Of a DNA stretch of 58,748 bases, positions 5,841 to 45,110 are shown piece by piece. Position numbers and translations under genes: made by a program. Below the pieces are notes generated by a model. It did not search any database and was not told the DNA's origin. It was given only the letters and a program-made list of their open reading frames with translations. The DNA comes from Asterionella formosa (taxonomy: Eukaryota). The stretch covers positions 1 through 58,748 of the forward strand of contig NKIB01013367.1 of NCBI GenBank assembly GCA_002256025.1, in the 5' to 3' direction. Position 1 is the first letter of the stretch. Each line of letters starts with the position of its first letter.

Positions 5841-5896
5841 CTGGTACCAGGTACCAGGTACCTCGTACTCCGGAGTACCCCGCACATACCGGTACC
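5841..5896. promoter_or_regulatory. GGTACCA motif array in the divergent intergenic region (oxygenase/PPR)
   Basis: CTGGTACCAGGTACCAGGTACC...TACTCCGGAGTA...TACCGGTACC. A regulatory role is inferred from position only. Confidence 0.45.
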
Positions 5897-6119
5897 ACTC
5901 TTTCATGGAATGGTCCTCGATATTTTGGTGGAATATTTCACAGAAGCATTATTCCGTTTATTTTTCACCACTTCCTTTGAATGAACGTACCTGTTATACC
6001 TGAACTGACTCCTTCCTGCACATCACGGATCTATTGCACTCCTCGTTTCCTATCGCGAGTACCATCATAGAGTGCAATTGAGGGAGAAATTCGTTGTTCC
6101 CGCTTTCTTTTTTTACAAA

Positions 6120-8012
6120 ATGTTGTTTCCTAGAACGACAGCATCATGTCCATTGTTGCTGTTCTTGATGAGCACACCGTCCATCGCATTTTCGCCCGCA
6201 TTTGAACCCACGCGACTTGGCAGCCAGAAAGGAGCACTCACTATCAATAAAGCCGACATTGAAGCCGTGATACAGGACCTTTTAGGCCATCGGGACAACC
6301 AACGAGACTTGACCATGTGGAGCAATTCCCGTGATCCAATGGCGTCGCAAAATGCACAGAAACTGCTCTTGACCATGACGACCAAGACTACCAAGGACTA
6401 CAATCTAGCCATCAAGGCGTTGATGAAAGATACAAAAGACTTTCTTGCGGCAGAAAAGGCGGAACTGTTATTACGAGAAATGCAAACAACCGAGGATTGT
6501 CAGCCAGATGAAGTTTCCTATTCCACTGTCATCACCGCATGGTCCAGGAGCAAACACAGAAATGCGGCTCGCAAAGCTGAGTCCCTCTTGAGGGAAATGC
6601 ATACAAATCCTCTTGTCACGCCCACTACTATTATTTATTCATCTCTCATTACTGCCTGGTCACGATCGAAAGATAAACACGCCGGCACCAAAGCGCAAGC
6701 CCTGTTGGATGAAATGTTGACAGAAGTTGCGCAGGGCAACACATTGGTCCGACCCAACAAATTGACGTATTCTGCAGTGATTGATGCATGGTCCAACAGT
6801 AGAGAAAATCCAAAGGCAGCTGAATATGCCGAAGCCCTGCTGAGAAAAATGCAAGCCAGCAAGGATGTGAATTGCAAACCGGATCATGTCACCTTTGGAA
6901 CTGTAGTGACGGCGTGGTCGAGAAGTCGAGATCGAAGAGCAGCATATAAAGCTAGGTGTTTGATAGATGAAATGCAGAGCCTTTATGAAGCCGGTGATAA
7001 GAGTGCCAAGCCAACGATTAAAGCCTATAGTGCCCTAATCACTGCATGGGCCAAAAGGAATGACTACCGAGCGGCTGTGGAGGCTACAGCCATTTTGCGG
7101 CTCATGGAGGAGCGAGGGATTAAACCCGATGCGATCGCATTCAATGCTGTAATTGATGCATGGTCACGAAGTAAGGTACCAGATGCTGCATCCAATGCCC
7201 AAGCCTTGTTTGATGAAATGGATCGGCGATTCAAAGCTGGAGAAGTCAATCTCAAACCAAATGAGGTTACCTTTACAACTTTAATTACAGCTTGGGGTCG
7301 GAGTCATCATGTAAACGGATGCCAACGAGCCCAAGACACGCTTCAAGAAATGAAGAATCGAGCCAAATTGGGTGACTATGGATGCATACCAAATCTGTAT
7401 GCATATAATTCCGCCATCACATCGTTTGCGCGGTGTCAAGATTTCGACGCCCCACTTCAGGCTCAATTGCTGGTAGACGAGATGTATGCACTTTATCGCA
7501 CTACCAATGACAAGGGAATTCAGCCAAATGTATACATATTTAATTCCTTGCTATCAGTTTGGGCCAGCAGTCGAAGGCCCGATGCTGCTTCGAACGCTCA
7601 AGCCATTTTAGAGGGAATGCACAAGCGATACCGAGAAGGTAACATGCTCATCAAACCCGACAAGGTGAGCTACAATACAGTCATTGCGGCTTGGAGTCGA
7701 AGTAATGATGTGTACGCTGCCCAACGAGCGCATGCACTCCTGCAATTGATGAAAGAATCTGGCGATCGTGATATCGCGCCTGATCGGATTACGTATTCGA
7801 CCCTTATTTCTATTTGGACCAGTGTCCCGGGCTTTGAAGCGTCAGAACGCATCTCGTCACTTGTAGATGAAATGAAGTTTGCCCTTCGAGAAGCATCTGA
7901 AGTGCGACAGCCACAACAGTCTAATTATAGAGAAGGTCGCCCACTAAAAAGGAATGTGCAGCCCTTTTCAGGGAAACTTGACGACACTAGAGGTCGAACG
8001 AAGAAAACATGA
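6120..8012 (+). CDS. Pentatricopeptide repeat (PPR) protein, probably plastid-targeted
   Basis: About 12 repeats of type P(D/N)xx(S/T)Y(S/N)xVIxAWSRS...A.KA..LL.EM. The first ATG is at 6120 (the track start at 6072 is GTG). A signal peptide ends in SIA-FSP, an ASAFAP-like motif. Confidence 0.9.
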   Translation: MLFPRTTASCPLLLFLMSTPSIAFSPAFEPTRLGSQKGALTINKADIEAVIQDLLGHRDNQRDLTMWSNSRDPMASQNAQKLLLTMTTKTTKDYNLAIKALMKDTKDFLAAEKAELLLREMQTTEDCQPDEVSYSTVITAWSRSKHRNAARKAESLLREMHTNPLVTPTTIIYSSLITAWSRSKDKHAGTKAQALLDEMLTEVAQGNTLVRPNKLTYSAVIDAWSNSRENPKAAEYAEALLRKMQASKDVNCKPDHVTFGTVVTAWSRSRDRRAAYKARCLIDEMQSLYEAGDKSAKPTIKAYSALITAWAKRNDYRAAVEATAILRLMEERGIKPDAIAFNAVIDAWSRSKVPDAASNAQALFDEMDRRFKAGEVNLKPNEVTFTTLITAWGRSHHVNGCQRAQDTLQEMKNRAKLGDYGCIPNLYAYNSAITSFARCQDFDAPLQAQLLVDEMYALYRTTNDKGIQPNVYIFNSLLSVWASSRRPDAASNAQAILEGMHKRYREGNMLIKPDKVSYNTVIAAWSRSNDVYAAQRAHALLQLMKESGDRDIAPDRITYSTLISIWTSVPGFEASERISSLVDEMKFALREASEVRQPQQSNYREGRPLKRNVQPFSGKLDDTRGRTKKT

Positions 8013-8155
8013 GCAAGTGTACAAAATATCTCCGACAGTGATACTGTAGCGATCTACATCATTTCTACATAGAAGCTGTTATCTATTGCAAATGTAAACA
8101 CCTATGTAACACACTCAATTGTGCCAAAACCGGTTTTGTGTTCGATCTATATATT

Positions 8156-9830: not shown

Positions 9831-10620
9831 ACCGGTTACCGGTACTGGTGCTGGTACTGGTCCTAACGCCTCTTTTACCATATTACTAACTGACTACGTA
9901 GCTAAAAGTGACGACTCACTCTTGGTGTCAGTCGTACCTGCCTGACACGCCGGTACCAGGTACGGTAGGTACATAACATCAAGATCGGTACCTACTATGG
10001 TATAATCCTGCATCTACAACTCAACCTAGCTAGCAGCTACCTGGTACCAGGTACTTCTATTTTTGCATTTTGTATACTGTGCAATTACAACCTAGTATCT
10101 GTACCTTGTACTCCGTCCCAGCAAGTTGCGGTCATCTGGCTTAAATAAACAATTTAATATAGGATAAAGATAGCTAAGCTTCTTGTTTCAGCACAATTAC
10201 AGCGACTTCCGCGCAGGTAATAACTAAACAAAGTGCAACGAACGACGCATTTGATTTTTCTATGTATTCATACTTACTATAGGAGGAAGCAGGAGTACCG
10301 GTGCGGTACTCCGAGTGTTGCTCGATTGGGGTACCAGGTACCTGGTACAGTACTGGTACCTGGTATGAATTCTGAACATACATACCGGCATGTACCAGGT
10401 AACCTTGTACCTGGTACCTGGTAGTCTGCCGTATCCCAGTATCCCGGTACCTGGTACCAGGTACACTGTACATAGGAAATGACAAGGTTTGATTAGTTGG
10501 ACTTCATACAGAAGGTGCCATGGATCGCTCAGCACCACCACCGTCAGCATCATCCTCATAACCGGGTGTCTGGATATCAAATACCGGTACATCTATCATT
10601 TACATGCTGTACAGTACTAG
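9831..10620. promoter_or_regulatory. Dense GGTACC/CCWGG/ACCGGT motif array between divergent ArgA-like and UBL5 genes
   Basis: Repeated GGTACCAGGTAC, GTACCTGGTACC and TACCGGTA units, densest at 10329-10465. Confidence 0.45.
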
Positions 10621-10827: not shown

Positions 10828-11049
10828 ATGATTGAAGTGGTTCTCAATGACCGACTCGGAAAGAAAGTCCGGGTCAAGTGCAACGAAGACGATACCATTG
10901 GTGACCTTAAAAAGCTAGCGGCGGCGCAGCTTGGCACTAGACCAGAAAAATTGAAGATTCAAAAATGGTACACTATTTACAAGGATCACATCACACTGGA
11001 AGATTATGAAATTCATGATGGCATGGGGTTGGAACTCTATTACCAATGA
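10828..11049 (+). CDS. UBL5: Ubiquitin-like protein 5 (Hub1)
   Basis: 73 aa [30 protein letters not shown]...[23 protein letters not shown], with the diagnostic C-terminal YY. Confidence 0.98.
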
Positions 11050-11128
11050 TGCAGGTCTTGTTCTGCTTTGCCTGTTTTTTTACTTATCGCCAAAAAGAAG
11101 GAATTTATGTACAAATGAATGTGAGATT

Positions 11129-12292: not shown

Positions 12293-13981
12293 GGTATTTA
12301 ATATATAATCTAACTAAAAAATAAATATACAGAAACCACCTTGCTTTGATTCTGATCGATTGATAACGATGATGCGTGCATGTGTGCATGTGGGTGGAAC
12401 AAATCAAGCAGGATCTCCTACCGGTACAATAACGAATAACAATGGAATGGAAATACCGGCGTACCTGGTACAGGTGGATGGTTATCTGACCACCATCATG
12501 CACCATGACGGGATAGCTACATAAGCAAAAGGTGAACTTCGAGCCGAATGAGTCGACTATGTATGAGGGAGTTTTCGACTGCACGACCAAGACCACCCAA
12601 AGTGAGATAGATACCTACCTTCGGGAGTCAGAGTGACAGGTACCAGTACCATGTTTGTATTTGAATGCTGCTACTAGTAATATGAACGTAATGTTTGGGG
12701 CAAGGCCAATCAATTGCCTTGAGTACCTACTAAGTGCTCTAAAAAAGAACAAATGTGTGTTGAGTAAGAATTCCAAATGGAATTTGGAGATCACTGGTGT
12801 TTCAATTGAATGTGGATCATTCGAAACAAAGCAAAGAACTAGATGTAGTAACTGATAATACGTATTTAGAAACAAAACAAAGCAGACATACTTTGATATC
12901 TACAGTATTCTTTGACTAATTAATAGATTTATACAAAAGGTCGCTCTTTAACATGTATATAAATGAATAGTAGAATAATTAAACCAAGCAATGAAATGTG
13001 CCTATAGAGAAGATGCCCCAGCCAACAACTCACCCTAGCTATTTGACCTGATATGTGACTTTTATTCTGATTTGCAAGGTTTTTCCTAGGATATGAGAAT
13101 GGAATGTTCTTGTTTGCGCTTCCTCACTTGCTGATTGATGATGAGTCCTAGATGATAATTGCCTGCAATTAGGTTTGATAAATAGATGGTGACCCCAGAA
13201 CAACCATGCATGGCTACCTAAGAATAAAGTGAGTCAATAATTGTAAGAGTAACAACGGCTACTAGAAGTTGTCTCAAGTTGAAAAAAGTCAATATTGAGA
13301 GACAGGAAGTATGTAATAACTAGTGGAGCAGTAATTGTGCTGAACAGGTTGTTCACTTGCTTACTGAGAAGGTACAAAGGAACCAAATTTTTTTGACAGA
13401 TAGATTTTGGTTTTTATTTCTCCAAAAAGGCTGCGCAAAGAAGTAGCAGTGCAGATACCAGCACCCTGAAGAGTAGTAGAGGCTTTGGAAATAATATGTG
13501 TCAATGAGGAATCAAAAGAAGCATTTGTGACCAAAATTCGTTTTATTGGTCCTTTTGCTGTAAAAATGTATTGGTACTATCTACCATATCAGATGGTGAC
13601 CCTACCACTTTCACCTTTTTTGAGATGTCAGTGGTAATCAAATCAGTACAATTTTCTTCAACCAAATCTCCGGAGAGTACTGGGCAGTGTACCAGTAATA
13701 TGCACAGTCCATTCATGTAAATATATACCGGTATTTATATTAGTATCATGTAATAACCAATATTATGTATTCTTGTTACTGTGTACAGTAAGGAGTACTT
13801 TAAACCTCGACTTCTCTATTTTGCCTGTACGTCGCCTAATGGAAAGATAGTAGCTCTCATGATTGTACCAGTAACTACATTGAGTACTCAACAATGACAT
13901 TCCACGTACATAGCTGGCTGCTTGTAGTGTACAATGTACCAGGAACCTGGTACTGGTAACTGGTACCCTAGTACCAGGGTA

Positions 13982-16648
13982 CTCCCTCTGTCCCATAACA
14001 GTCGCAGCGATTCGCTGGCACAACTATTGTCGAGCAGCTTATTTTAGGACGGATTACATAGACTACATACCATCTTTCTACATGAGGGTCGGGTTACTCG
14101 AAAAAATGCGTATTTTATGAGTTACATAGACATGAACATAAACTCTGTTTTTGTAATTAAATAATTAGCATCTAAATAAATTATTCTAAACCAATTTAAC
14201 ATGCATATATTCATTGGGAATATGTATATATCAGACAATGCTAATGCGTTGATTTTGCTACATAGTACCATTTGTTCATCATCATCATCATCATCATCTC
14301 ATTTTTGTCTAAATGAATGTCGACATCGCCAATGCGCCCATTCCTGATGGTCAGATCCTTGGCTTGATGGCCAGCAACAATGGTCACAGTTGCGCCCATC
14401 ATCACTGTTGCGGATCAACTGCAGTAAAGTTTGGCTCTGTGGTTTTTTTCTTCTCTTTGTGTGTTGTGTTGGACAAGATCCTACAAGAACTCGAGGATGC
14501 TATCCAGGTGACCACGGACTGTGACTTCCATCCAGAAATTCAAAAGTGCAGAGTTGCATATCTTTCCAGGAGAATCGCGCATAACAAAGTAGAGGCAGCG
14601 CAGTATGTTAATCATACTGCTGTAGTTATTGAAATGCGAAAAGACACACTCTACGGAGCAAACAAAACGACAAACAAACATGCAAATTTATGGAGTTGCT
14701 CTTTTACATTTCTCGATTGTTAGAGTCAAAATTGAAGATGCTGCAGGAAATTCTTAATTCTACTGCTGTGCAGATAAAATAAAATCCAATAATAATTATC
14801 CAACTCGTTGAAACTATAAGTACAATACAAATAGAACCATTAACAACCAATGCTAGTATATATATATTAAAAAAGGGGGAACGTCTTTTGATCTAATGCA
14901 GCCACAAGCCATAATGGCACCGGAGACAAAGACCCCCTTACCATCACACTTTACTACTATTAAAACAGATCATACAGGAATGTGCGGGCCAACTCGATTG
15001 CCCCTTCCCCAGCTGCTAGCTATCCTATCAGGTAGAAACCCCGCCTGTTCCAAAGTCGCCTTCCCAATGTGAGGTATCTCGTTATTGCTTTCACTATTAC
15101 TAACCAAACGAATCTCTTTCAAGAAACCCTCTAATGTTTAAAAAAATATAATTTCTTTGGTTCAAGCGAAGCGAATGCTGCCTGCACTGTCTCTATTGAA
15201 CCGTGCTGGCGTCTTCCACAGAGTCCCATTGGTCTGACTGTAATGCCCCAAAAATGATAGATCGTTGATGTTCAAATCCGGGCTGGTGTTTCCTGGTTGC
15301 TGACGAGTCAATCAACTACCCATTCTCCATCTTTTGCAGCTGCTACAAAGGGAGCAAAATCGGAACCAAAATTTGTTCAGCATTGTCATGCTGTAAACAT
15401 ATTCGCTTGTTTCCATCAGGCCACTTGCTTCGCTTTGATCATAGGCAAAACATTATTAACAATCATGTCAACATATGACTGTTTTTTGACTGGAAGTGAC
15501 TTCGTTTCCATTGTCCCTGCCAGTCGATAAATTGAACTTCTTTGTGCTACTAGCACTACTTGGTGCACAAATGGGCAAATTACAATTTTACCATCAAATG
15601 TACACACCTTTTCGTCGTCAAAACGAGTGGAACATTACCTTTTCGATATGCTTCTTATTTTTCGTTTGCCTTGTGGGAGCCTCTTCTCCATGAGCCAGAT
15701 ATAATTTCAACTTTTCTTCTGAGGAAATAAAGAATCATTTTTCATCTTTTATATGGACCTGGTTGTAGAAGCCATCAAATTATCAAAACATTCCAGGATC
15801 GAAATCAACGTCAGGGGAAGAATGATTTTCTTGATCTGGATGGTCCAATTGCACATAGTAGTGAACATAGTACATAGTAAAACAAAAATTCTTACCCTCC
15901 TCTGAAAGCTTCCACGCCATGACTGCACTTATGTGTGGTCATAGTAGATTCTTGCTATTATCCTTTGCAATCCAAAAATTGCTGACTTGGGAAGGACAAC
16001 AAGAGCAGCTGCTAATTTACAATATGTTGTACAGTTTCTTGCGATATGGAAAATCTCTAATCACTGCAATTATTTCTTCACAATTTTATTTGCGAGTATA
16101 CCCAGTGGTCAACAATTTGTGGGAAAGTGATGCAAACACATAAGTATCACCATTAGCTATAATAGAGTTCGAGCACGCAGTACCAAATACGTTGTATAGT
16201 CGCTTGTTGCTTTATCAACTTTGAACTGGCCCAACAAAAATTTAATGGTTCCACACTCGTCTAAAACAAGCCGACCATCTATTTCATCCCCTCCCTCAGC
16301 CAGGTCCTTTTTGGAGGTGTTCTGCAGACCATACTCCTACACAAGTTGCCGCTCTTGTGGTGTTAGATATTTTCTCATATGCTTGTTGAGAAGAGGTGGT
16401 GGTAAGGAAAAACGGGGGTTAGGCATCTGTATTTTGCTCAAGAATCGCAAAGAAAGTGGAAGATGAAAGAGCAAAAGAAAATTTCAAATGTAGTTGCCAG
16501 ATTTAATCTTTCTATATATATTGTATAAATGGATCCATAGCTTAGAGCAAGCTGCATAATAGGGCAGTTGAGCCAGAGAAAATCATTGGAGTCAAAATGG
16601 CCCAGATATATTGGAATTATCAATGCAACTGTTATTGGACAGAGTGAG
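13982..16648 (-). mobile_element. Mariner-like (DD39D/plant-mariner type) DNA transposon, copy 1, decayed
   Basis: TIRs CTCCCTCTGTCCCATAACAGTCGCA (13982-14006) and TGCAACTGTTATTGGACAGAGTGAG (16624-16648) match at 22/25. TA on both sides (13980-81, 16649-50). Broken minus-strand transposase (FDGKI..PFVHQV..QRSSIYR.AGTMETKS; LQHDNA). Colinear with copy 2. Confidence 0.92.
14313..14723 (+). CDS. Mariner-borne second ORF: Cys/His (NNGxSCxxHxCCG) motif plus HIRAN-like core
   Basis: 136 aa ATG-initiated ORF inside the TIRs, convergent with the transposase. A homologue is present in copy 2 (38105-~38520). EDAIQV...CRVAYLSR resembles the HIRAN 'xAIxV...xGY(V/L)PR' strands. Confidence 0.6.
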   Translation: MNVDIANAPIPDGQILGLMASNNGHSCAHHHCCGSTAVKFGSVVFFFSLCVVLDKILQELEDAIQVTTDCDFHPEIQKCRVAYLSRRIAHNKVEAAQYVNHTAVVIEMRKDTLYGANKTTNKHANLWSCSFTFLDC

Positions 16649-17188
16649 TACCACAGGACCAGGTACCATCAGTTACCAGGGTACCTGCAAGCTGCGGTCA
16701 TTTTGCTAAAAAAAACAATTTAATATGGATAAAGGTAGCTAAAAGTTTAGTTCGATGCATTACTGCAACTTGATGTGCGCTGGCTGCGGCAGGTGGTGTG
16801 TTCCTCTGCTCCTGCTGCAGTAGGATGTTGCATCACCTGGTATGACCATCATGCGTCACATGCACACAGGATGAGATGATGGCGGCTGACCCCGCCTCAA
16901 GAAATAATCCAATCATTCATGTTTTCACGTATGTACCTATTATATCGGCAGCGAGTTCCTCCTGTACCCGGGTACTGGTATGCTACTGATAATAGGTACT
17001 CCGAGGACCGGTACTCTGGTACCAGGTACCTGGTAAAAATATGTGTACTGCTGCTGATCGAGCGCCACCATGTGATCTACCGGTATATACAATAAAAATA
17101 TTGTCGAATCGCACATTAAGTTTCGTTGTTCTTGCCAGAGTTGCTTTCTCCTGCTCTCTTTCGTTTTGCTCTACGTAAATATACAAGA

Positions 17189-18310: not shown

Positions 18311-19038
18311 TAGTGTCGCTTGCGCTCATTTCGCCTACCGGTATTTACTTGCCCGAGGTTGTTGGGATGGATGCAGACACTATTATTCACACTATACTGG
18401 TACAACAATCTAAGTTAGCTCAATATCTAGTGCTGAAAGCACTACTATTAAGTACTCCATATCGTTGCTATATATCTATCTATGTAGAGTGAATGTCTCT
18501 ACCTTTCGGTTACAACCATGCGATTAGACGAGAATCCACCATCAGTTATGTTGGATGAGAGTTTGTCATTGCAATCTCTACATCAAAGTAAAGCAAAGCA
18601 AGTGTGACTTTGTGACATGACTTTTCGATCATGGCGGGGACAAAAATAATGAATTCAAATTTTGTTGGAATATATCGTGAACAGTGTGACCAACCATGAT
18701 TACCGGCACACGTTTACAACATTTACTGGCATCACGTGTAATATTAAAATGTGATAATACTTGTACTGTAGTACCGGTATTTATGTATGTATTTGATATC
18801 ATCATTCCATTGCTCGCATATTTCCTGACGACAGCCATCATGGTGTCATGGGTACCGTGGTACAGTTTATTATTGTTATATTTTATAATCATTGGAATTC
18901 TTGCTTAATTTCTTTCTCGACACAAACTCTCATCCCACCTTCTATTTTCTCTGCCTTTTCGTTGCAACACTTCCATTAACTTACTACATTTTCGTAGATC
19001 AAGTCAAGAATTATTTGTCATCATAGAAGCAGCCCAAA

Positions 19039-27482: not shown

Positions 27483-27578
27483 CAGTAGTAGTGATGATGA
27501 ATAACCTTAAATTAATTCATTCTAATATAATGTGAAAGAAGTGATGCTAAATAATCATGAAGGAATAATTTCTTTGAA

Positions 27579-28766: not shown

Positions 28767-29294
28767 GGTCAGTGACCGACGATGATGAATATATAGAACT
28801 CATGCATATAATGAACAAGAGGCGGCATAGCATACAAGAGGATGCATCAATATGAAAATTTAACTGTTGAAAATGAAAGTTAAAAATATATAAATAAAGA
28901 ACAATGCACTACATCCCGGTATATCGTAGGAAGTGCAACACACAGTGCCTGGTACTAAACCGGTACCTGGTACCGTAGTGTAGAATGAACTTCAACGGGC
29001 GTAACTACCGTACTCAAAAATCATTAACAATCAAAATAACGGTAGTATACCAGTAAACTTAGGAAGACGGTTCTCAATCTTCCCGTCGTTCTCTACATAC
29101 AGTGTGTTATTTCCTTTTTTGCCAAGTGGAACATCCGCATTGTCGGTGGGTGATCACGTTGCCGACCATTTCAATTACTTTTCTGCAGGAAAAATAATAT
29201 ATATCATTATTCTCGCTGGCGGTGTTGTACCAGGCCACCATCAGCTCGTACTCCTCGTCAAGATCTTTATCAAAGTCTCCTATTTCCAGCATCA

Positions 29295-32944: not shown

Positions 32945-34081
32945 GATGATAGCTTCGATGATCGGTTAGACGACCAGGAAATTGAATGATACTGCAAGAA
33001 GTGGACAGCAGAAATGGCATCAACAAAACTTTTTGAGAACTTCAGTTCTGATTTGTTCGGGAACAAGCGCGCACCGCCTGACTGACATCAATGCTTGAAC
33101 CACTACCGGTATTTCAGTACGTTCGATCGATTAGTACGACTAAAAACTGATATACCGGTATTCATTTCCATCATCTTAGATGCTCCTGATATGCACGAGA
33201 GGTGGGGGATTATGATTGGACTAACGATTCAGTCAGGTTCCATCGACAACGGAAGATATGATTGTTTGTTTTGATGCATTTACCGGTATCCATTTTGGAG
33301 GTTCAAAGCGGTATATAAAATATCTTAATGTTCTTCAGGGAAGACGGATTACAACGTTTCATAATGCATATTCGGGATCAGTTTCCGGTACTACTTACAC
33401 TCGGGATGATTTCCACTATGGGGATCTAAATAAATATATAATAATAAGGTTTACCAGAGTCATGTATGTGTACATTCCTCCGAGGTCGTGGTAAACCGCT
33501 AATTTGTACAAAAAAGGTCTATCGACACTTTCATGTATAAATATTGATGAATGTTCAGTGTACCTCGTTCATACTCTGAAAAGCGCTATATGATAAATGA
33601 TCTTACTACCGGTAGTCTAGAATTATGTAGATGAACTGACCTCGATTGTTTTGGCGTGTTTTTGGTAGTAGAATCGCGCCTCGATTCGAATGTTCGCTGT
33701 AGATCCCCCCCTTTTTCATTGAACTTTTGTTTGTCAATAGAAATAAGAAGAAGGATATAACACCAAAACAACAACAATACATTGCAGATTGCTTGCTTGC
33801 TGTTTTGCAACCAAAAAAGGGAGGCTAATGAGAGCACAAAACTTCAGCTATATTGTTCAATGTCTATTCCTGATATATCTTTTGTTCAGAAAAGCATGCT
33901 TGTTACTTTATTTAGATTTATCTCTTTGGTAGTAAATGCTGATATTAAACACACATATATACAGGTCAGCATGCTGACCAACGAAAATCAATAGCCCTAA
34001 ATAATGCACATGTATTCCTAGCTATTTAGCATTATACTCACCTGACTATATTTTCATCATTTTTATAGCGCATTCTTACTA

Positions 34082-34729: not shown

Positions 34730-34731
34730 TA

Positions 34732-36520: not shown

Positions 36521-36731
36521 AAATCAGGAGAGGAGCTTTTCCGGTATACAAGTACAAGATGAAGGGCTGTGAGCAATCAATAGATTTAGTTGTGCATTGA
36601 CTTCTACTGAAGATTCAATGCAAGTAGATATGTACACGTGGCTACAGGTATGCATTTGACAGGAGAGATTGCTATCACTCACTCGTCCTACTGCTATCTA
36701 AATAAATCTAAGTTTTGATAGAGAAAAGAGG

Positions 36732-37210: not shown

Positions 37211-38104
37211 GACCGAAAAACCATGAAGAACACGGATTAGGGTAAGTTTAGAAGTCACCGAATCATAAGATATACGACAATCAATATAAAAGTTTCTATA
37301 TTGATTTGAACCTTCACCTCATTTACGACAATATAGTATATCTTGTCTTGGTATTGACTTCTACGGAGATGGCTAATAATTTAGGCGCATGGCATCATCA
37401 TGCAAATGCGTTATGTATGATTACGGCTATACCAGGTAGAAAGTACATACCAGGTTTTCATCGCATCTTTCTAATAACACGCATGACAAGTGCTTTAACA
37501 CATGACCTAAGAATCCATCCTCGAAAAATTAGATAAATTTATACACGCATAGTCTATCTAGCAAAAAGTATATACTGCGGGCCATGACCCGTTGAATTCA
37601 CATTTTAGCTGTTTTGTTATCATCGTATCTTCTGATGAAATCGTTCAATCAGAATTCTAACATCACAGCTTGATTGATCGATGCTGATCTGACACTGTCG
37701 AACAAACGGGTCCGCAATTTGGTAGAATTTACCATTAGTCGGAGGAGTCAAACAAACACCCTGACTCAATGGGTCATGGCAGTATTTTACTGGTACCTGC
37801 TGGTACTCCCTCTGTCTAGTATCAGTTGCATCGATTCGCCGGCACCACCAGTGTCTTTACTGTTCGCATATGAAGGATTATGTAGCCAACATACCAATTT
37901 TCTACGTGAGGGTCGGCTTACTCGAAAAAATGCGTTTTTTATGAGTTACATAGACATGAACGTACACTCTGTTTTTGTAATTAAATATTTAGCATCTAAA
38001 TAAGTTAATCGAAACCAATTTAACATATTTTTATATATTGGGTACATGTAGATAGATATCAAGCAATGCTAATGCATTGATTTTGCATCATCATTTTTGT
38101 CAAA

Positions 38105-38520
38105 ATGGATGTTGACTTTGCCAATGCGCCCATTCCTAATGGTCAGATCCTTGGCTTGATGGCCAGAAACAATGGTTACAGTTGCGCTCATCATCACTGC
38201 CTGTTGCGGATCAACAGTAAAGGTTGGCTCTGTGGTTTTCTTCTCTTTCTGTATTGTGTTGGACGAGATCCTCCAAGAACTCAAGGATGCTATCGAGGTG
38301 ACCATGGACTGTGATCTCCATCCAGAAGGTCAAAGGTGCAGAGTTGGGTATCTTGCAAGGAGGATTGCGCATAACAAAGTCGAGGCAGCGCAGTATGTTA
38401 ATAGTACTGCTGTAGTTATTGAACTAGCTACTACAAGATTCTAAGGAGCAAACAAAACGGAGAATGAATATGCGAGGTTATGGAGTAGCTCTTTTTACGT
38501 TTCAAAATCCTACTGCTGTG
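38105..38520 (+). pseudogene. Second (cargo) ORF of mariner copy 2, with a frameshift after HHHC
   Basis: MDVDFANAPIPNGQILGLMARNNGYSCAHHHC / CGSTVKVGSVVFF...KDAIEV...RCRVGYLARRIAHNKVEAAQYVN. Clear homologue of 14313-14723. Confidence 0.75.
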
Positions 38521-38704
38521 TAGTTAAATAAAATCCAACTATAGTTATCCAGCTTGTCAAAGAAAATATAAGTTCAATACATATAGAACCATTAACAGCC
38601 ACCAGTGCTAGTATATATATAAGGGGGAACGTCTTTTGATCCAATGCAGCCGTGCAAAATGGCGCCGGAGACGAAAACCCCCTTCTTATCATTACAACCT
38701 ACTG

Positions 38705-40207
38705 TTAAAAAAGATCATCCAGAAATGTGCTAGCCAACTCAATTGCTCCTTCCCCAGCTGCTAGCCTATCAAGTAAAATTCCCGCCTGTTCCAGAGCCGC
38801 CTTTCCAATGTGAGGTAGTATGTTATAATTGTTTTCGCCATTGACCAAAATAATCTCTTCCACCAAGCAACCCTGTAATGTTAAGAAAGAACAATTTAAT
38901 TTGTTTGGTTCAAAAAAACGAATGCTGCCTGCACTGCCTCTATCAAACCGTCGATGTTGTTGTGGGCTACTTCCACAGAGTCCCATTGACCTGACTGTAC
39001 TGCCCCAAAAAAGATAGATCGTTGATATTTAAATCCGGACTGTTCGCTGGTTGCTTAGTCAATCGATATCCCATTCTTCATCTGTTGGTGCAGCTCCTAC
39101 AAAGGGAGTAAAATCGGAACCAAAATGTGCTGAAGCATTGTTGTGCTGTAGATATTTTCGTATGTTTCCATCAGGCCACTTCGCTTTTATCATCGGTAAA
39201 ATATTATCAACAATCATGTCAGCATATGACTGTTTTGTCACTGGTGGGAGTGACTTTGTTTCCATTGTCCCTGCCGGTCGATAAATTGAACTTCTTTGCG
39301 CTGCTACTTGGTGCACAAATGGCCGAATTCCAATTTTACCATCAAACATACACACTTTTTCGTCGTCAAATCGCGGATGTGTTGCAGCAGAAAGGAACAA
39401 GACCTTTTCGATATGCTCCTTATGTTTCGTCCGCCTTGTGGGAGCCTCTTCTCCATGGGCCAGATATATTTTCAACTTTCCTTCTGAAACAAAGAACCAC
39501 TTTTCATCTATATGGACCTGGTTGTAGAAGCCATCATAGTAACCAAACAGTCCCGGATCGAAATCAACGTCAGGGGAAGGATGTTCTTGATCTGGATGGT
39601 TCAATTGTAAATGATTAAAACAAGGCATAAAATGACTTATCTTACCCTCCTCCGAAAGCATTGGCTTGACTGCACTTGTGTGCAGTCGTATTACATTCTC
39701 TCTGTTATCCTTTGCAATCCAAAAAACTGTTGACTTGGGAAGGGCAAGAGCAGCTGCTAATTTACGATACAAAGTACGCTTGCGATATGGAATACCTCTA
39801 ATCGCTGCAATTATTTCTTCATGTGGGTATTTGCGAGTATACCCAGTCAATAATTTGCAGGAAAGTGATGCAAACACGTAAGTATCATCATTATAATAGG
39901 ATTCAAGCGCATGGTTCCAAATACGTTGTAAAGTTGTTTTATCAACTTTGAACCGGCCCACCAAAAATTTAACTGTTCCACGCACTAAAATGAGCCGACC
40001 ATCTATTTTGTCCCCTCCATCAGGTCCTTTTTGGAGGTTCCGTAAACCATAATCCAACACAAGTTGACGCTCTTCTGGTGTTAGATGCTTTCTCATGTGC
40101 TTGTTGAGAAGAGGTGGTGGCAAGAAAAAAGGGGGGTCAGGCATCTGCATTTCGCTCGAGATGAGCAAAAGTGGAAGTCGAAAAAGCCGAAAAACGTTTT
40201 TTTTCAA
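38705..40207 (-). pseudogene. DD39D mariner transposase, frameshifted, with the second catalytic Asp changed to Asn
   Basis: VHIDEKWF, KVLFLSA...PRFD, FDGKIGI.PFV, QRSS..RPAGTMETK, LQHNNA (for QxDNA). After a frameshift near 39059: QPANSPDLNINDLSF; then FLTLQGC..EII..NG.N.Y...HIGK..LE..G.L. Confidence 0.92.
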
Positions 40208-40371
40208 ATGTAGTTGCCAATTTTACTCTTTCTGTATATAATATATGCATGGATCGCTAGCTTATTAGCAAGCTGTGCACCATAGGGCTATTGAGCCGGA
40301 GAAAATCGTAGGAGTCAAAATGGCCCCGGATAAATTTGAATTATCGATGCAATGTTACTAGACAGAGGGAG

Positions 40372-40690
40372 TACCTGGTACCAATAAAAACGGTAGATAC
40401 CATACCACCAGGCCAACAAGGATTGCTTCCGAGTTCCAAAGAGCACAGCACTAGGTAGCACAAGGGTACCAGGTACCTAAATTTCTTATGGACCATATGT
40501 ACCGGTATGTACCTGGTTGTACCAAGGTACCAAGTACCAGGTACCGCCAGCTTTATTTCAGTTGCGGCACCCAGCATCTTTCGCCCAAATAGTACCTGGT
40601 ACCAGGTACCAGGAAATTAAAAAAAGGCGCAGACGTGCTACCGGTACTGGTACTGGTTCCAGGAGGTACCGCAAGGAAAGGTACCGGCAA
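40372..40690. promoter_or_regulatory. Dense GGTACC motif array upstream of the dsRBD gene, abutting mariner copy 2
   Basis: Many GGTACC/GGTACCAGGTACC units immediately after the TIR. Confidence 0.45.
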
Positions 40691-40782
40691 CAAAACTCAG
40701 AAAAGACCCAACTTGTCCTTCCTGTTGACTCGATTGCGCTCCACTTTCTTCTCCGATCATTGTGTTAACAAAGCAAAGGAGC

Positions 40783-41592: not shown

Positions 41593-42472
41593 TGAAGGTA
41601 AGCCCAGACTATCGAGAATGGAACACTAACTTGATTGTACAAACGAAAGGCGATTCGTAGGAAGAAACTGAGGTCATTCGATCGCCTAGCGGAAGTGGAG
41701 GTTACAGGTTTTATTCAGCACTGTCCTATTTTCTAGTGATGAAAAAATACGTGAGATAAGTACAGTTTCTGAATCGAAATAGAAGAACCAAACTTTTCAA
41801 GCTTCACTGACACTTTGACCGAGATGGATTCATTTGATCCAACTTGTGCTCGCAAAAGAAACGTAAGTCCCTCATGTTAGAAGCTAGAATGATTTTTGTC
41901 ACCCTATGATAATCAGATTACATTCCGAGAGTACTGTTACCGTTATCGTATGTTCCATGAGTCACCCCATCGTCACGGATGTGCAGATGCTGGAGTACTA
42001 TGATAGAAATGTATCGGTAATACCTGCAGTCATCGTGTGCAACCACCGGTGATATTCTATTCTTGAGATGCTATGTATAGACTCTAAATCTATCACAACC
42101 CTCGTGATTTGGTTTGTACGCTTTTATCTGTTGAACACGTGTAGTCTAGACGACGTCGCTGTGAATTCATTCCCAATTTTTTCGTCCAATCTTGCAAAAT
42201 CATTTTATGAGCCGCCCTTGATCGATTTGCAACAACGACAAGTCAGGTTTGGCCAGTGACATCACTAAGATATAAAATGAAGTACAAGAGGAGGTACTTT
42301 TACACTCTAGTTTACATATATTTAACTCCAACGATTGTTTGGCTGGCATGTTGGAAAGTGAACCCTTGAAGAAACATCCGAATATTTCTTTTATGCTTTT
42401 TCAAGAGCAAATCCGTTGTCAACTCAGGTAGGTATTCTAATTGATATTGAGTAAGTTTACATCCTCCCTGCA

Positions 42473-42988
42473 CTACACTCGGTTGAATGAGTATGTTTTT
42501 TTTAGTATATCCGCCTCGCACAATTCAACTTCATCTGAGTATTCGACGCCCTCGGCAATTACTGCTTCCACTGGGGGAGGCAAGCGTTTTGCTCGTGCCT
42601 CCGGTTTTCTTTGTTTCCGGGCCGGAGCGCATTCTATCAAATCTTGAGTGAATTCATTCAATTTCTCAGCAAAGTCTAAAACACTCTTTCTGGGCCACAA
42701 ATCTAGTCGATTTATCGGGGGGGTCAGATGGCACGGCGATGGCGTTGTCGACACTTTTGTCTTCCCCGTTGACCATCCCCTAGTGGAGCAGCTACTCCAT
42801 CCTGAAGATGAAGAGCTATCAGAATAGCTCATCAGATAGGTCAGGAACGAGGCCTGTAAGGGATTTCCCAAGCTGAAAGTGCATGCAGTTTCGTGTTGAT
42901 GATGTGACGCTGATTTACTTTTGTTTGAATTTTTCCCGGTGATGCAGTCGTGAACAGCGATCGGATTCAAAGGGCCATACAAAGGCAT
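42473..42988 (-). CDS. Hypothetical Ser-rich protein
   Basis: 171 aa ATG ORF with gene-like GC, divergent from the RING gene. No recognised domain. Confidence 0.35.
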   Translation of the reverse strand: MPLYGPLNPIAVHDCITGKNSNKSKSASHHQHETACTFSLGNPLQASFLTYLMSYSDSSSSSGWSSCSTRGWSTGKTKVSTTPSPCHLTPPINRLDLWPRKSVLDFAEKLNEFTQDLIECAPARKQRKPEARAKRLPPPVEAVIAEGVEYSDEVELCEADILKKTYSFNRV

Positions 42989-43603
42989 GTGTAGGAAAAT
43001 TTGCTCCAGTGTATGTACTGCACACTGTCATCCATTTTCAGGTTTATGATAATCTTAGTTCCTGTAGCTTATCATTTCCATACTAAAGACGATATGAAAT
43101 TCGTCAATATAGGATTTTCTGTTCAGTTCGATTTGCCAAAATTGTTTGCAAGATGTATATACCGGGTACTCATCAACGTTGAAATATGAATACTCGCTTT
43201 CCGATCCTCCACCGATCAAGGACTGATACATGCATGTTTAGGATACAAGTGCGAATATGTGATATTGCGCTGAGAGAGTAGGTAAAGCAAATGAGGGAAT
43301 TTTCCGTTGGGTCTAATGACGCATGCTCCACACTACCGGTATAATAACTTCTATTGATAGTTTTGACCTCTCGATTCGACATGGTCAAAATGGTTTCCGC
43401 GTTCCTAAGAATTGGTACCAGGTACCAATATCCTATTTGTCTGCGCCATCATATAAAATGAAGAACTGTACCAGGTACCAGGTACAAGGAACCACGGATG
43501 TCGAAAAGCGCGACAAGAGAAGCATGAAGACTATTGATCATCATAACAGTTTGCTTCAGCAAGGAAAGTTCACTATTGTCATCATCATTCCCTCCCCCTG
43601 GAC

Positions 43604-44728
43604 ATGACTATACGAAATGACTGGTGCCAAACCTGTGAGGAGGCGTCTGACTATAATGCTGTGATTTGCTCGGTTTGTGGTGATTCGTTGACGTCGCGAC
43701 CAGCCCCTGCAGTCAGAGTTGTCAGATCAAGCACTCCCTCGACAATAGCACGTGCATCGCTACTCTTGCCCGAGCACATTGTTCAGCAAGTTCATGCATC
43801 GAATGATGAACTTACTGTTTTGCTGGCTGAATTAAGGCAGCAAGTGAGTGACTTACGAGATCACACCTTCGTGGCGCAACAACGTGCAGCAAGTGTGTTT
43901 GGAGACATTGAAGATTTGCGAGGAATTTTACCCCCAGAAGCCTTCGATCCCCAACAAGCGAGAGCGCCGAGTAGAGGAACAGCGAAAGAAACTCTGAATG
44001 CTTTACCAAGAATTACTGTGGAGAAGAAGTCCTCCATCTTGGCACAGGCTACCGTAAGCGTTTCTAGTGGTGGTCCACAGTTTGAAGCCGTTCTTGGAGA
44101 GTTTGGTCCACCTGCACCTCATGTATTTAAGAATAAAAAATTGGTTGTAGCATCGCCGAGAACTGGCAAGGGGGGACTGAGTCAAGATACTGTCTCAAAA
44201 GCCAACGAATCGATTCTATACATGGAGCGAGGGGGAGAGCTGACCTTTGTTAGGAAAGCGATAATGGCCCAAGAAGTCGGAGCGATTGCTGTCATCATTG
44301 GTAATAATACGAGCGCATCATGGCCCTATTCTATGAAGGACAGCAACGGAGAAGCGTCTTTACTTTCCCTGAGAATTCCAGTCGTTATGATCAAAGAAAC
44401 AGATGGTCAATTATTAGTCCAACGCTACCAGACTAATGCATCCACAACCTGCAACCTTGAAGTTAATTCTATCTCAAAGGAATGCATCATTTGCTGTGAA
44501 GAGTTTAGTTTAGGGCAAAATTTATTGCAATTGCCGGCTTGCGGCCACTTCTTTCACGAGAGATGTGCCCTGACTTGGCTGACCGAGCACAATTCTTGTC
44601 CATTTTGTCGACGACAGCTACCAACAGATGACCCTATTTACGAAGCCGAACGACGGCGGACTCAAAGAACTCATGCTGGTGGTTCTGGGGGCACTACAGA
44701 TTCAAATGGCGATTCATTCTATGGATAG
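43604..44728 (+). CDS. E3 ubiquitin ligase: N-terminal Zn ribbon + PA domain + RING-H2
   Basis: WCQTC...CSVCG; ILYMERGGELTFVRKAIMAQEVGAIAVIIGNN...IPVVMI (PA domain); CIIC...LPACGHFFHERC..WL..HNSCPFCR (RING-H2). Confidence 0.9.
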   Translation: MTIRNDWCQTCEEASDYNAVICSVCGDSLTSRPAPAVRVVRSSTPSTIARASLLLPEHIVQQVHASNDELTVLLAELRQQVSDLRDHTFVAQQRAASVFGDIEDLRGILPPEAFDPQQARAPSRGTAKETLNALPRITVEKKSSILAQATVSVSSGGPQFEAVLGEFGPPAPHVFKNKKLVVASPRTGKGGLSQDTVSKANESILYMERGGELTFVRKAIMAQEVGAIAVIIGNNTSASWPYSMKDSNGEASLLSLRIPVVMIKETDGQLLVQRYQTNASTTCNLEVNSISKECIICCEEFSLGQNLLQLPACGHFFHERCALTWLTEHNSCPFCRRQLPTDDPIYEAERRRTQRTHAGGSGGTTDSNGDSFYG

Positions 44729-45110
44729 TTTTGTTATTAGGTTACCGGTACTCGGACCATGCATATAAGATCATGTTTTATTTTTTTACAAGTAAACTAC
44801 CGGTATCACCTTCGGTTGTATACTTCTGCACTACCGGTAAATCGTATATATGTAGTAAAATAAAATCGTGCAGCTTCGAATCACCACCTGCTCACGACAC
44901 TTACCGGTACCAGGTACCTGGTAGTCTACCCGGTACCTGGTACTCTGCCTGTCGATGTTTAGCATACCCGTAGTAGGGTTACAGAATTTAGGGTTAAAAA
45001 ATATTCTGCGATCGGTGTTCGCAGGCTGCTGGGCAGGCGCGTTGTTGCAAAAACATGTTGTTGCATTTCGTATCGCTCCTCAGTTTCACTGCATAGAAGT
45101 CCCATAGACC

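What the first reader, a model, noticed from the sequence alone, without database searches (positions are those of the whole stretch)
5841..44945. GGTACCA / TACCGGTA motif arrays mark gene 5' regions and avoid convergent junctions
Seen: clusters of overlapping palindromes (GGTACC, CCWGG, ACCGGT; often the heptamer repeat GGTACCA or GGTACCT) occur at ~621-638, 5841-5896, 9831-10620, 12419-12650, 13935-13981, 16649-17085, 18770-18863, 28915-28975, 33104-33390, 37789-37805, 40372-40690, 43414-43485 and 44742-44945. Almost all are upstream of an intact gene or between divergent genes. Convergent gaps (8012-8156, 11049-11129, 31643-32185, 46628-47091) and transposon interiors lack arrays. The CDC123 upstream region is an exception with none. 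Inference: this could be a genome-wide promoter, chromatin or boundary signal, a DNA-modification site, or a self-propagating scar sequence.
Basis: partly seen in the sequence, partly recalled or inferred. Interest (0 to 1): 0.75.

Follow-up and report, generated by a model that had tools for sequence, protein, structure and literature searches.

The report
Promoter-linked GGTACC palindrome arrays in diatom
In this piece of a freshwater diatom genome, short clusters of the palindromes GGTACC and TACCGGTA sit in front of nearly every gene and never between gene tails, so they are most likely docking sites for an unknown promoter-binding protein.

Summary
GGTACC is the most over-represented hexamer (45 against about 10 expected). 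GGTACCWGGTACC occurs 11 times against 0.00 in shuffles, and TACCGGTA 21 times against 0.23. GTAC cores lie 7 bp apart 29 times against about 1 expected. The unit is an inverted TACC/GGTA pair with a spacer of 0 or 1 (A/T); overlapping copies give (GGTACCW)n.

Ten of 11 intervals on the 5' side of a gene carry the motifs (13.2 GGTAC/GTACC per kb). Five convergent gaps sit at background (2.0 per kb, no GGTACC). Metagenome contigs with similar GC show the same bias. Contigs from independent sequencing runs cross the arrays, and dozens of other contigs share the array sequence with unrelated flanks. So this is neither an assembly artefact nor a transposon.

The host is a diatom. TACCGGTA was already predicted as a promoter motif in oomycetes (PMC3597505, PMC3520976, PMC10031896). 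I found no report of it, or of the arrays, in diatoms.

Best reading (0.55): clustered binding sites for a dimeric promoter factor. A mariner-like transposon has inserted twice into the central TA of a GGTACC. New variant of a known kind; interest 0.55.

The parts
621..639 (.). Short period-7 array (GGTACCAGGTACC). It lies at the 5' side of a conserved ~290-nt non-coding segment (336-622, minus strand).
   Evidence: The homologous segment in L048 also has arrays at that side, but in a different arrangement.
5843..5896 (.). Array field in the divergent gap between the gene at 4189-5517 (-) and the PPR gene at 6120-8009 (+). It holds three tandem GGTACCW units plus one TACCGGTA.
9837..10589 (.). 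Largest motif field, in the divergent gap between the amino-acid-kinase gene (ATG 9535, -) and the ubiquitin-like ORF (ATG 10828, +). A MITE-like element at 10115-10208 interrupts it.
12419..12650. Motif cluster starting 127 bp upstream of the ATG (12292) of the minus-strand gene 11132-12292.
13936..13982 (.). Left half of an array split by transposon copy A (13978-16652).
16648..16685 (.). Right half of the array split by transposon copy A. A second MITE-like copy (16680-16790) follows it.
16933..17085 (.). Array plus one TACCGGTA, ending 104 bp upstream of the GET4 ATG (17189, +).
18772..18863 (.). One TACCGGTA plus a GGTACC cluster 176 bp upstream of the kinesin ATG (19039, +), in a tandem gap. 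One further TACCGGTA sits at 18336, 26 bp after the GET4 stop.
28951..28974 (.). Array 321 bp upstream of the inositol-phosphatase-type gene (ATG 29295, +), next to a Harbinger transposase gene.
   Evidence: DNA contig X2 record 17 crosses it.
33104..33288 (.). Three isolated TACCGGTA copies upstream of the spliced, highly expressed minus-strand gene 32022-32965.
   Evidence: The intron and poly(A) end are seen (joint 32571/32885; a T run before 32022).
37792..37806 (.). Left half of an array split by transposon copy B (37802-40375).
   Evidence: (pair I2).
40371..40685 (.). Right half of the split array, followed by the densest field in the window (9 GGTACC in 407 bp). It ends 98 bp upstream of the ATG at 40783 (+).
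   Evidence: DNA contig X2 record 22 covers 40354-42277 with no difference, and an RNA contig starts at 40736.
43334..43485 (.). One TACCGGTA plus two arrays in the divergent gap between 42476-42988 (-) and the RING/PA gene (ATG 43604, +).
   Evidence: DNA contigs X2 record 24 and X6 record 29 cross it, and RNA contigs start at 43558 and 43592.
44743..44943 (.). Four TACCGGTA copies plus an array between the RING gene stop (44728) and the first exon of the V-ATPase subunit C gene (RNA reaches back to about 45081).
   Evidence: In one search, RNA contigs of two studies end at 44771, and the introns are 45210-45377 and 45437-45517.
37802..40375 (.). Transposon copy B, with 23-nt terminal inverted repeats and a 363-387-aa ORF with no Pfam match. 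Copy A is 13978-16652. Both copies sit in the TA of a GGTACC.
   Evidence: I2; 78% identity over 2760 columns. High read depth marks it as repeated DNA.
46626..47093 (.). Example of a convergent gap without motifs. The others are 8010-8158, 11050-11131, 31641-32021 and 41590-42475.
48228..50600 (.). Upstream region of the D123/CDC123 gene: the one 5' region without motifs.

Best explanation
The arrays are homotypic clusters of binding sites for a sequence-specific, probably dimeric, DNA-binding protein that acts at the promoters of a freshwater diatom.

The recognised unit is an inverted pair of half-sites, TACC and GGTA, with a spacer of 0 (TACCGGTA) or 1 (TACCWGGTA). When 1-spacer sites overlap by two bases they produce the 7-bp register (GGTACCW)n and, as a by-product, the GGTACC hexamer.

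The sites are palindromic, so they work in either direction. That fits their position in shared divergent promoters. Because almost every 5' region in the window has them, the factor would be a general promoter or open-chromatin factor rather than the regulator of one pathway.

Shown: the motif architecture, its enrichment, its restriction to the 5' side of genes, its multi-copy nature and its presence in independent data.

Inferred: that a protein binds it, that the protein is a dimer, and that binding opens chromatin or activates transcription.
For: (1) Strict half-site geometry. TACC-Nx-GGTA occurs 21 times at x=0, 32 at x=1 (30 of them A/T), 5 at x=2, 0 at x=3 and 1 at x=4. The everted order GGTA-Nx-TACC occurs only 1-2 times at each spacing.

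(2) The most enriched 8-mers against a Markov-3 model are TACCGGTA (21 against 0.94) and ACCWGGTA (68 against 5.2).

(3) 16 of 21 TACCGGTA copies stand alone in unique sequence, so replication slippage cannot have made them.

(4) Placement. 5'-containing intergenic DNA holds 13.2 GGTAC/GTACC per kb, against 2.0 in convergent gaps, 0.84 in genes and 1.1 in transposons. By region the count is 9 of 10 against 0 of 5. The nearest motif edge lies 98-321 bp upstream of start codons.

(5) RNA contigs begin downstream of the arrays: at 40736 where the array ends at 40685, at 43558 where it ends at 43485, and at about 45081 where it ends at 44943.

(6) The same bias holds in metagenome contigs of GC 0.40-0.47.
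- Only 1 of 135 arrays lies inside an ORF of 150 aa or more.
- Flanking ORFs face away from the array 117 times and towards it 33 times.
- Gaps that carry an array: divergent 7 of 9, tandem 9 of 32, convergent 1 of 16.
- Gaps that carry the search pattern: 9 divergent, 6 tandem, 0 convergent. The other gaps number 9, 37 and 22.

(7) TACCGGTA was not part of the search pattern, yet it is enriched in those loci (43 against 3.4-5.6 expected).

(8) Other stramenopiles have the same octamer as a predicted promoter motif, as read in passages:
- Phytophthora infestans motif M94 is TACCGGTA (PMC3597505).
- Motif-9 is an inverted repeat upstream of 1,284 Phytophthora genes (PMC3520976).
- Plasmopara halstedii streme-5 is ATACCGGTAT, found upstream of 206 genes (PMC10031896).

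(9) In a homologous segment (window 336-622 and L048), arrays sit at the same side but differ in number and order. That is the turnover expected of site clusters.
Against: - No binding protein is known or identified here. No chromatin, transcription-start or reporter data exist for this organism.
- RNA was available only as assembled contigs, which cannot show true 5' ends.
- A 7-bp register puts neighbouring sites on different faces of the helix and makes them overlap by 2 bp, so not all sites in an array can be occupied at once. That also fits simple slippage of a unit.
- In metagenome loci, gaps without the search pattern rarely carry arrays: divergent 3 of 9, tandem 2 of 37. 'Nearly every promoter' may therefore hold only for this window or this species.
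- Gene calls in those loci are bare ORFs, and the organisms behind them are unknown.
- One 5' region (D123 upstream) has no motif.
- In Phytophthora the octamer marks a subset of genes, not all, and its binding factor is unknown there too.
Confidence: 0.55

Rival explanations
1. The arrays are a promoter-confined microsatellite with no function of its own. The palindromic 7-mer expands by slippage or hairpin formation, and survives only where DNA is nucleosome-free or repair is biased.
For: - Tandem Repeats Finder calls period-7 arrays of 2.7-9.6 copies and period-6 TACTGG arrays.
- Contigs of other runs that cross arrays show 7, 14, 30 and 36 gapped letters (records 29, 17, 30, 24). That is compatible with unit-length variation, but the positions of the gaps are not shown.
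- Array content differs between homologous segments.
Against: - 16 of 21 TACCGGTA copies are single copies in unique sequence within the same regions.
- The strict 0/1 spacing rule and the everted-order control are not slippage properties.
- Arrays are short and interrupted, not long pure tracts.
- There are none in 1966 bp of convergent gaps, and they are near absent in 9 kb of transposon DNA.
- The octamer is shared with oomycete promoters.
Confidence: 0.15
2. The arrays are a DNA-structure signal. They would extrude cruciforms or hairpins, or exclude nucleosomes by shape, and so mark promoter boundaries or replication origins without a dedicated sequence reader.
For: Three of 8 arrays folded as single-stranded DNA are far more stable than their shuffles (z = -3.5, -4.6 and -5.8, none of 200 shuffles as good). 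Two more have z of -2.4 and -3.2. All the units are palindromes.
Against: - Three of the 8 arrays do not stand out from shuffles (z = -1.2 to -1.75).
- Isolated 8-bp palindromes cannot extrude.
- The specific TACC/GGTA letters and the spacing rule would not be needed for structure alone.
Confidence: 0.1
3. The arrays derive from mobile DNA, as the ends, footprints or landing pads of the mariner-like element and the MITE-like element, and spread with them.
For: - All four ends of the two transposon copies read GG-TA-CTC..., next to arrays.
- GGAGTACC/GGTACTCC occurs 9 times against 2.3 expected.
- Three of 6 MITE-like copies abut a GGTACC.
Against: - 26-42 contigs of run X2 share array sequence, but their flanks agree at only 0.35-0.39, which is unrelated sequence. 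There is no conserved element around the arrays.
- Most arrays in the window have no transposon end nearby.
- The repeat unit GGTACCW and TACCGGTA are not contained in the terminal repeat.
- With a TA duplication, the GG and CC belong to the target, so the element landed in arrays rather than creating them. One end in L113 has TA without GG.
Confidence: 0.07
4. The motifs are targets of a DNA methyltransferase or of a restriction-like system (GTAC, CCWGG, ACCGGT).
For: The only support is that the words are palindromes of the kind such enzymes read.
Against: - GTAC as such is barely enriched (251 against about 220 expected). Isolated GTAC sites show no flank preference.
- The enrichment is confined to promoters rather than spread over the genome.
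- No such gene is in the window.
Confidence: 0.03

Closest known systems
Oomycete promoter palindrome TACCGGTA: P. infestans M94 (PMC3597505), Phytophthora motif-9 (PMC3520976) and Plasmopara halstedii streme-5 (PMC10031896). All were read as passages only.
   Same: The 8-bp palindrome is identical, it is over-represented upstream of genes, it occurs in another stramenopile lineage, and the binding factor is unknown.
   Different: - In oomycetes it occurs as single sites upstream of a subset of genes (1,284 and 206 genes) and is linked to infection or hyphal stages.
- Here it comes with a 1-bp-spaced variant, forms 7-bp tandem arrays and fields of up to about 750 bp, and marks 10 of 11 5' intervals.
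- The sister oomycete motif TACATGTA occurs once in the window. It is enriched in the metagenome loci (22 against 3.5-5.3 expected).
Homotypic clusters of transcription-factor sites and promoter microsatellites (by recall: GA-repeat/GAGA-factor sites, general regulatory factor sites in yeast)
   Same: Many copies of one short site are packed in the nucleosome-free zone upstream of many unrelated genes. Copy number turns over.
   Different: The unit is a palindrome with a 7-bp register, and no factor is known. Chromatin state is not measured.
Dimeric factors that accept two half-site spacings (by recall: bZIP proteins on TRE and CRE sites, HD-Zip on 9-bp pseudopalindromes)
   Same: Inverted half-sites are used at two spacings that differ by one base.
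   Different: This is an analogy only. The half-site TACC matches no specificity that I could find. The oomycete binding-array study has no TACC, GGTA, GTAC or CCGG strings in its main text (PMC11267843). Its figures and supplements were not seen.
Highly iterated palindromes such as cyanobacterial HIP1 (PMC4390886, seen in a search listing only)
   Same: A short palindrome is many-fold over-represented.
   Different: By recall, HIP1 is spread over the genome, coding DNA included. Here coding DNA is depleted (0.10 GGTACC per kb) and the excess is confined to promoters.
Stowaway/mariner-like elements with TA target duplication (recalled, for the inserted transposon)
   Same: The terminal repeat starts CTCCCTC... 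directly after a TA at all four ends.
   Different: The encoded 387-aa ORF has no Pfam or PDB match, so the superfamily is not shown.

Membership tests
Stramenopile promoter palindrome TACCGGTA (oomycete M94 / motif-9) | Exact 8-bp palindrome TACCGGTA | tested here: met
   21 copies against 0.23 in shuffles. The sequence is as printed in PMC3597505 and PMC10031896.
Stramenopile promoter palindrome TACCGGTA (oomycete M94 / motif-9) | Over-represented upstream of genes | tested here: met
   15 of 21 copies lie within 500 bp upstream of start codons. 18 lie in 5'-containing intergenic DNA against 0 in convergent gaps.
Stramenopile promoter palindrome TACCGGTA (oomycete M94 / motif-9) | Bound by the same (orthologous) factor, with a stage-linked expression effect | not testable with these tools
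   No factor is known in either lineage, and there are no expression series for this organism.
Homotypic cluster of transcription-factor binding sites | Several copies of one motif within a few hundred bp, confined to regulatory DNA | tested here: met
Homotypic cluster of transcription-factor binding sites | Occupied by a sequence-specific protein | not testable with these tools
   This needs a gel shift, DAP-seq, ChIP or footprinting.
Microsatellite / short tandem repeat | Head-to-tail copies of one unit | tested here: met
   Period 7, 2.7-9.6 copies, 65-100% matches. The 7-bp spacing occurs 29 times against 1.07 expected.
Microsatellite / short tandem repeat | Length variation by whole units between individuals | tested here: inconclusive
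   Contigs crossing arrays carry 7, 14, 30 and 36 gapped letters, but the output does not place the gaps.
Microsatellite / short tandem repeat | All motif copies explained by tandem expansion | tested here: not met
   16 of 21 TACCGGTA copies are isolated in unique sequence.
Transposon or MITE | Conserved body or flanks, terminal repeats and target duplication around each copy | tested here: not met
   Flanks of 26-42 other copies agree at only 0.35-0.39. The arrays have no common flanks.
Highly iterated palindrome (HIP1-like) | Excess independent of coding or non-coding status | tested here: not met
   Genes hold 0.10 GGTACC per kb against 4.96 upstream. Only 1 of 135 arrays lies inside an ORF in metagenome loci.

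The most novel reading that the evidence does not exclude
Diatoms of this lineage may use a near-universal 'palindrome island' as their promoter mark. Fields of TACC/GGTA inverted half-sites, up to about 750 bp in the window and about 1 kb in the metagenome loci, would be read by one abundant dimeric pioneer-type factor. Its 8-bp core site would be shared with oomycetes and so be ancient in stramenopiles. The same sites would act as preferred landing pads for a mariner-like transposon that cuts the central TA. In that case promoter identity, bidirectional transcription and transposon targeting would all hang on one short word.
Probability: 0.25. Interest if true: 0.75.

Novelty: new variant of a known kind. 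Interest (0 to 1): 0.55.

Why it matters
Very little is known about how diatom promoters are built, and diatom engineering still relies on a few empirically chosen promoters. A short motif that marks most promoters is easy to find by eye and works in both directions. It would give three things:
- a direct handle for annotating promoters and gene orientation in diatom and metagenome assemblies;
- bait for isolating a major promoter factor;
- a building block for synthetic promoters.

The shared TACCGGTA core with oomycetes makes an old open question testable, namely which protein reads the abundant oomycete palindromes.

The repeated insertion of a transposon into the central TA of GGTACC also suggests a natural case of promoter-targeted integration.

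Tried and rejected
- Whole-genome search: no genome is held for this window, so 'genome-wide' rests on indirect evidence.
- Rfam and tRNA scans of the window: nothing found. A relaxed Rfam scan of 200-760 also found nothing.
- Folding the MITE-like element as RNA gave z = +0.96, so it is not a structured RNA. A consensus fold of the conserved 290-nt segment had no compensatory pairs among 62.
- Orthologous promoters of relatives: the closest V-ATPase C relatives (83-84% identity) could not be fetched. An all-against-all comparison of the loci gave no useful orthologous pairs.
- Literature:
  - GGTACC with promoter terms found only cloning sites.
  - GGTACC with 'diatom' found 6 papers, none about a motif.
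  - GGTACCAGGTACC found 0 papers.
  - ACCGGTA with 'diatom' found 12 papers, none about a diatom motif.
  - Diatom core-promoter terms found nothing on this motif.
- The oomycete binding-array paper has no TACC, GGTA, GTAC or CCGG strings in its main text. Its figures and supplements were not seen and may hold a matching logo.
- Atlas look-up of the PPR protein failed.
- RNA cover: the listed RNA contigs do not cover the arrays. Absence of cover in contigs is no evidence, so it is not used.
- Joints between arrays (for example 40613 to 43468 or 44906, with sides of 18-22 letters) are assembly cross-links through the shared motif, not rearrangements.
- High-GC loci from the pattern scan: 12 of 17 pattern matches lie inside long ORFs. 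They are a different, probably bacterial, phenomenon and were left out of the counts.
- A transposase assignment for the 387-aa ORF found no Pfam match better than E = 0.077 and no PDB match.

Full report
**What the window is.** The window is eukaryotic. RNA contigs show GT..AG introns, for example 45210-45377 and 45437-45517. ORFs are long and intron-poor, with ordinary housekeeping genes:
- PPR 6120-8009 (+)
- an amino-acid-kinase-type gene 8159-9535 (-)
- GET4 17189-18307 (+)
- a kinesin 19039-24075 (+)
- an inositol-phosphatase-type gene 29295-31640 (+)
- a RING/PA gene 43604-44725 (+)
- V-ATPase subunit C ending at 46625 (+)
- D123/CDC123 47094-48227 (-)

Every homologue of V-ATPase C whose source names an organism comes from a diatom, at 56-73% identity. 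An Atlas lead also points to Bacillariophyta. Runs that hold the stretch are freshwater, lake and 'algae' metagenomes from 13 studies. No whole genome is held.

**The observation.** GGTACC is the most over-represented hexamer, 45 against 9.8 expected. Further figures:
- GGTACCWGGTACC occurs 11 times against 0.00 in 100 shuffles.
- TACCGGTA occurs 21 times against 0.23 in shuffles.
- Pairs of GTAC cores lie exactly 7 bp apart 29 times against 1.07 expected, with a weaker echo at 14 bp.
- Tandem Repeats Finder reports period-7 arrays of 2.7-9.6 copies and three period-6 TACTGG arrays.

**Anatomy of the motif.** Against a Markov-3 background the most enriched 8-mers are TACCGGTA (21 against 0.94) and ACCWGGTA (68 against 5.2). 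Counting TACC-Nx-GGTA gives 21, 32, 5, 0 and 1 for x = 0 to 4. Thirty of the 32 single spacers are A or T. The everted order GGTA-Nx-TACC occurs only once or twice at each spacing.

So the element is an inverted pair of TACC/GGTA half-sites with a spacer of 0 or 1. GGTACC and the heptamer repeat arise when 1-spacer sites overlap by two bases. Sixteen of the 21 TACCGGTA copies are isolated in unique sequence. Isolated GTAC sites show no flank preference.

**Where the motifs lie.** I added one gene to the ORF map: a 73-aa ubiquitin-like ORF at 10828-11049 (by recall it resembles UBL5/Hub1).

With that map, ten of eleven 5'-containing intergenic intervals carry the motifs: 127 GGTAC/GTACC, 37 GGTACC and 18 TACCGGTA in 9623 bp. 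Five convergent gaps (1966 bp) hold 4, 0 and 0. Counted by region this is 9 of 10 against 0 of 5, Fisher p = 0.002.

Density of GGTACC is 4.96 per kb within 500 bp upstream of start codons, 0.10 in genes, 0.28 downstream and 0.11 in transposons. The nearest motif edge lies 98-321 bp upstream of the start codons. The D123 upstream region is the only 5' region without them.

In tandem gene pairs the field runs into the 3' UTR of the upstream gene. TACCGGTA at 44743 lies inside the RING transcript, whose RNA contigs from two studies both end at 44771.

**Independent support.** Contigs of a 2025 DNA run (X2) cover 40354-42277 with no difference, and 42853-48000 with 1 substitution and 36 gapped letters. 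Contigs of a 2019 run (X6) cover 43349-44093 (7 gapped letters) and 44231-45843 (30 gapped letters). The arrays are therefore not assembly artefacts. The gap totals hint at unit-number variation, but the output does not place the gaps.

At array borders, 26-42 other X2 contigs match the array and then run on into sequence that agrees at only 0.35-0.39. That means many other places carry the same arrays in unrelated surroundings.

RNA contigs begin at 40736, at 43558 and 43592, and (by record arithmetic) at about 45081. These points are 51, 73 and about 137 bp downstream of the nearest array. Contigs cannot prove a 5' end, so this is a weak hint that the arrays are upstream of, not inside, the transcripts.

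**A wider sample.** Seventy-three loci have GC 0.40-0.47, like the window, and 35 have GC above 0.50.

In the high-GC loci, 12 of 17 pattern matches lie inside long ORFs. In the GC 0.40-0.47 loci only 1 of 55 does. I used only the latter loci and dropped four redundant ones (L021, L029, L078, L082).

- In 44 loci of at least 1.5 kb, 135 distinct arrays were found and 1 lies inside an ORF of 150 aa or more.
- ORFs within 1.5 kb face away from the array 117 times and towards it 33 times. Arrays in one gap are not independent, so the binomial p-value overstates this.
- By gap, divergent 7 of 9, tandem 9 of 32 and convergent 1 of 16 carry arrays (Fisher p = 0.0005).
- Gaps holding the search pattern are 9 divergent, 6 tandem and 0 convergent. 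The remaining gaps number 9, 37 and 22 (Fisher p = 0.0002).
- Among gaps without the pattern, only 3 of 9 divergent and 2 of 37 tandem gaps have arrays. The near-universality seen in the window is therefore not shown elsewhere.
- Long loci show fields of up to seven array clusters over about 1 kb between divergent ORFs.
- TACCGGTA, which was not in the pattern, is enriched in these loci: 43 against 3.4-5.6 expected, with 11 in one locus.

Caveats: genes were called as bare ORFs, and the organisms behind the loci are unknown. Two loci share transposon families with the window at the protein level (L047, L019). A third, L031, carries a 526-bp repeat at 97% DNA identity.

**Mobile DNA at the arrays.** Two copies of a 2.6-2.7 kb element lie at 13978-16652 and 37802-40375. 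They are 78% identical over 2760 columns and have 23-nt terminal inverted repeats. Read depth in DNA runs is tens of times the single-copy level over the second copy.

All four ends read GG-TA-CTCNCTCTGTC. No direct repeat flanks the ends if GGTA is counted as part of the element. If TA is the target duplication, both copies have a perfect one. An end in L113 has TA preceded by CG, not GG.

On that model each copy sits in the central TA of a GGTACC inside an array. The small clusters at 13936-13982 with 16648-16685, and at 37792-37806 with 40371-40382, are then the two halves of split arrays. By recall, the terminus resembles Stowaway/mariner-like ends. The encoded 387-aa ORF has no Pfam or PDB match, so the superfamily is not shown.

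A second, MITE-like element of about 105 bp with 20-bp inverted ends lies in the fields at 10115-10208 and 16680-16790, and in four loci. Three of the 6 copies abut a GGTACC. I read this as insertion into accessible promoter DNA, not as the origin of the arrays.

**Mechanism.** The strict inverted half-site geometry points to sites for a dimeric DNA-binding protein at promoters (confidence 0.55). That most 5' regions of unrelated housekeeping genes carry them suggests a general promoter or chromatin-opening factor rather than a pathway regulator.

Binding, dimer state and effect on chromatin are all inferences. The rivals are:
- a functionless promoter-confined microsatellite (0.15);
- a DNA-structure signal (0.10), since 3 of 8 arrays fold far better than their shuffles;
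- a mobile-DNA origin (0.07);
- a modification target (0.03).

**Comparison with what is known.** The octamer TACCGGTA is already in print as a predicted promoter motif of oomycetes, which are also stramenopiles:
- M94 in P. infestans, a 'high-confidence' palindrome listed next to M93, TACATGTA (PMC3597505, passages).
- Motif-9, an 'inverted repeat motif' upstream of 1,284 Phytophthora genes (PMC3520976, passages). Its letters are quoted as GTACCGGTA in PMC10031896.
- Streme-5, ATACCGGTAT, upstream of 206 Plasmopara genes (PMC10031896, passage).

No binding factor is named in the passages I read. A 2024 binding-array study of P. infestans factors has no matching string in its main text (PMC11267843; figures and supplements not seen).

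I found no paper that holds GGTACCAGGTACC, and none that links these words to diatom promoters.

New here are the 1-bp-spaced variant, the 7-bp tandem register, the dense fields, the near-universal presence at promoters in this window, the diatom host, and the transposon insertions into the motif.

**Verdict.** It is a new variant of a known kind: clusters of a promoter motif whose core is shared with oomycetes. Interest is moderate to high (0.55), because it gives a concrete, testable handle on diatom promoter architecture. The claim of function remains inferential.

Noticed in passing
window 13978-16652 and 37802-40375: Two copies (78% identical) of a 2.6-2.7 kb DNA transposon with 23-nt terminal inverted repeats. 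Both appear to be inserted, with a TA duplication, into the central TA of a GGTACC within an array. The 387-aa ORF of copy B has no Pfam or PDB match.
   Followed up: partly
window 10115-10208 and 16680-16790; also L011, L056, L037, L116: MITE-like element of about 105 bp whose first and last 20 bases are inverted repeats. It lies inside motif fields, and 3 of 6 copies abut a GGTACC. The window copy does not fold better than shuffles as RNA.
   Followed up: partly
window 336-622 (minus strand) and L048 190-480: Non-coding segment of about 290 nt, 81% identical between the window and a metagenome contig, with long stretches identical. Arrays sit at its 5' side in both. There is no Rfam match and no compensatory pairs. 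It could be an unknown RNA gene or a repeat.
   Followed up: partly
window 26460-28638: PIF/Harbinger-type pair: a DUF6818 ORF (+) and a DDE_Tnp_4 transposase ORF (-). Homologues at 30-40% protein identity lie in the same arrangement in L047, and in part in L019.
   Followed up: partly
window 26006-26076: Near-perfect 32-nt inverted repeat (97% complementary, 7 nt between the arms), with a GGTACC at 26043 that spans the spacer and the start of the second arm.
   Followed up: no
window 33337-40150: Read depth in independent DNA runs is 20 to 1000 times the single-copy level, marking a block of repeated (transposon) DNA. It includes a 594-bp element with 31-nt inverted ends at 34078-34733 that is 97% identical to L031.
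   Followed up: no
window 10828-11049: Unannotated-looking 73-aa ubiquitin-like ORF (by recall UBL5/Hub1-like). Its Pfam ubiquitin score is just under the curated cut-off.
   Followed up: partly
loci L039, L050, L053, L097 and other GC > 0.50 loci: Very dense GGTACC repeats (11-18 per kb) in high-GC contigs. Among GC > 0.50 loci of 1.5 kb or more, 12 of 17 pattern matches lie inside long ORFs (the four loci named are shorter and were not in that count). This is a separate, probably bacterial, phenomenon.
   Followed up: no
metagenome loci of GC 0.40-0.47: TACATGTA, the sister palindrome of the oomycete motif, is enriched in these loci (22 against 3.5-5.3 expected) but occurs only once in the window. 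This suggests species differences in which palindrome is used.
   Followed up: no
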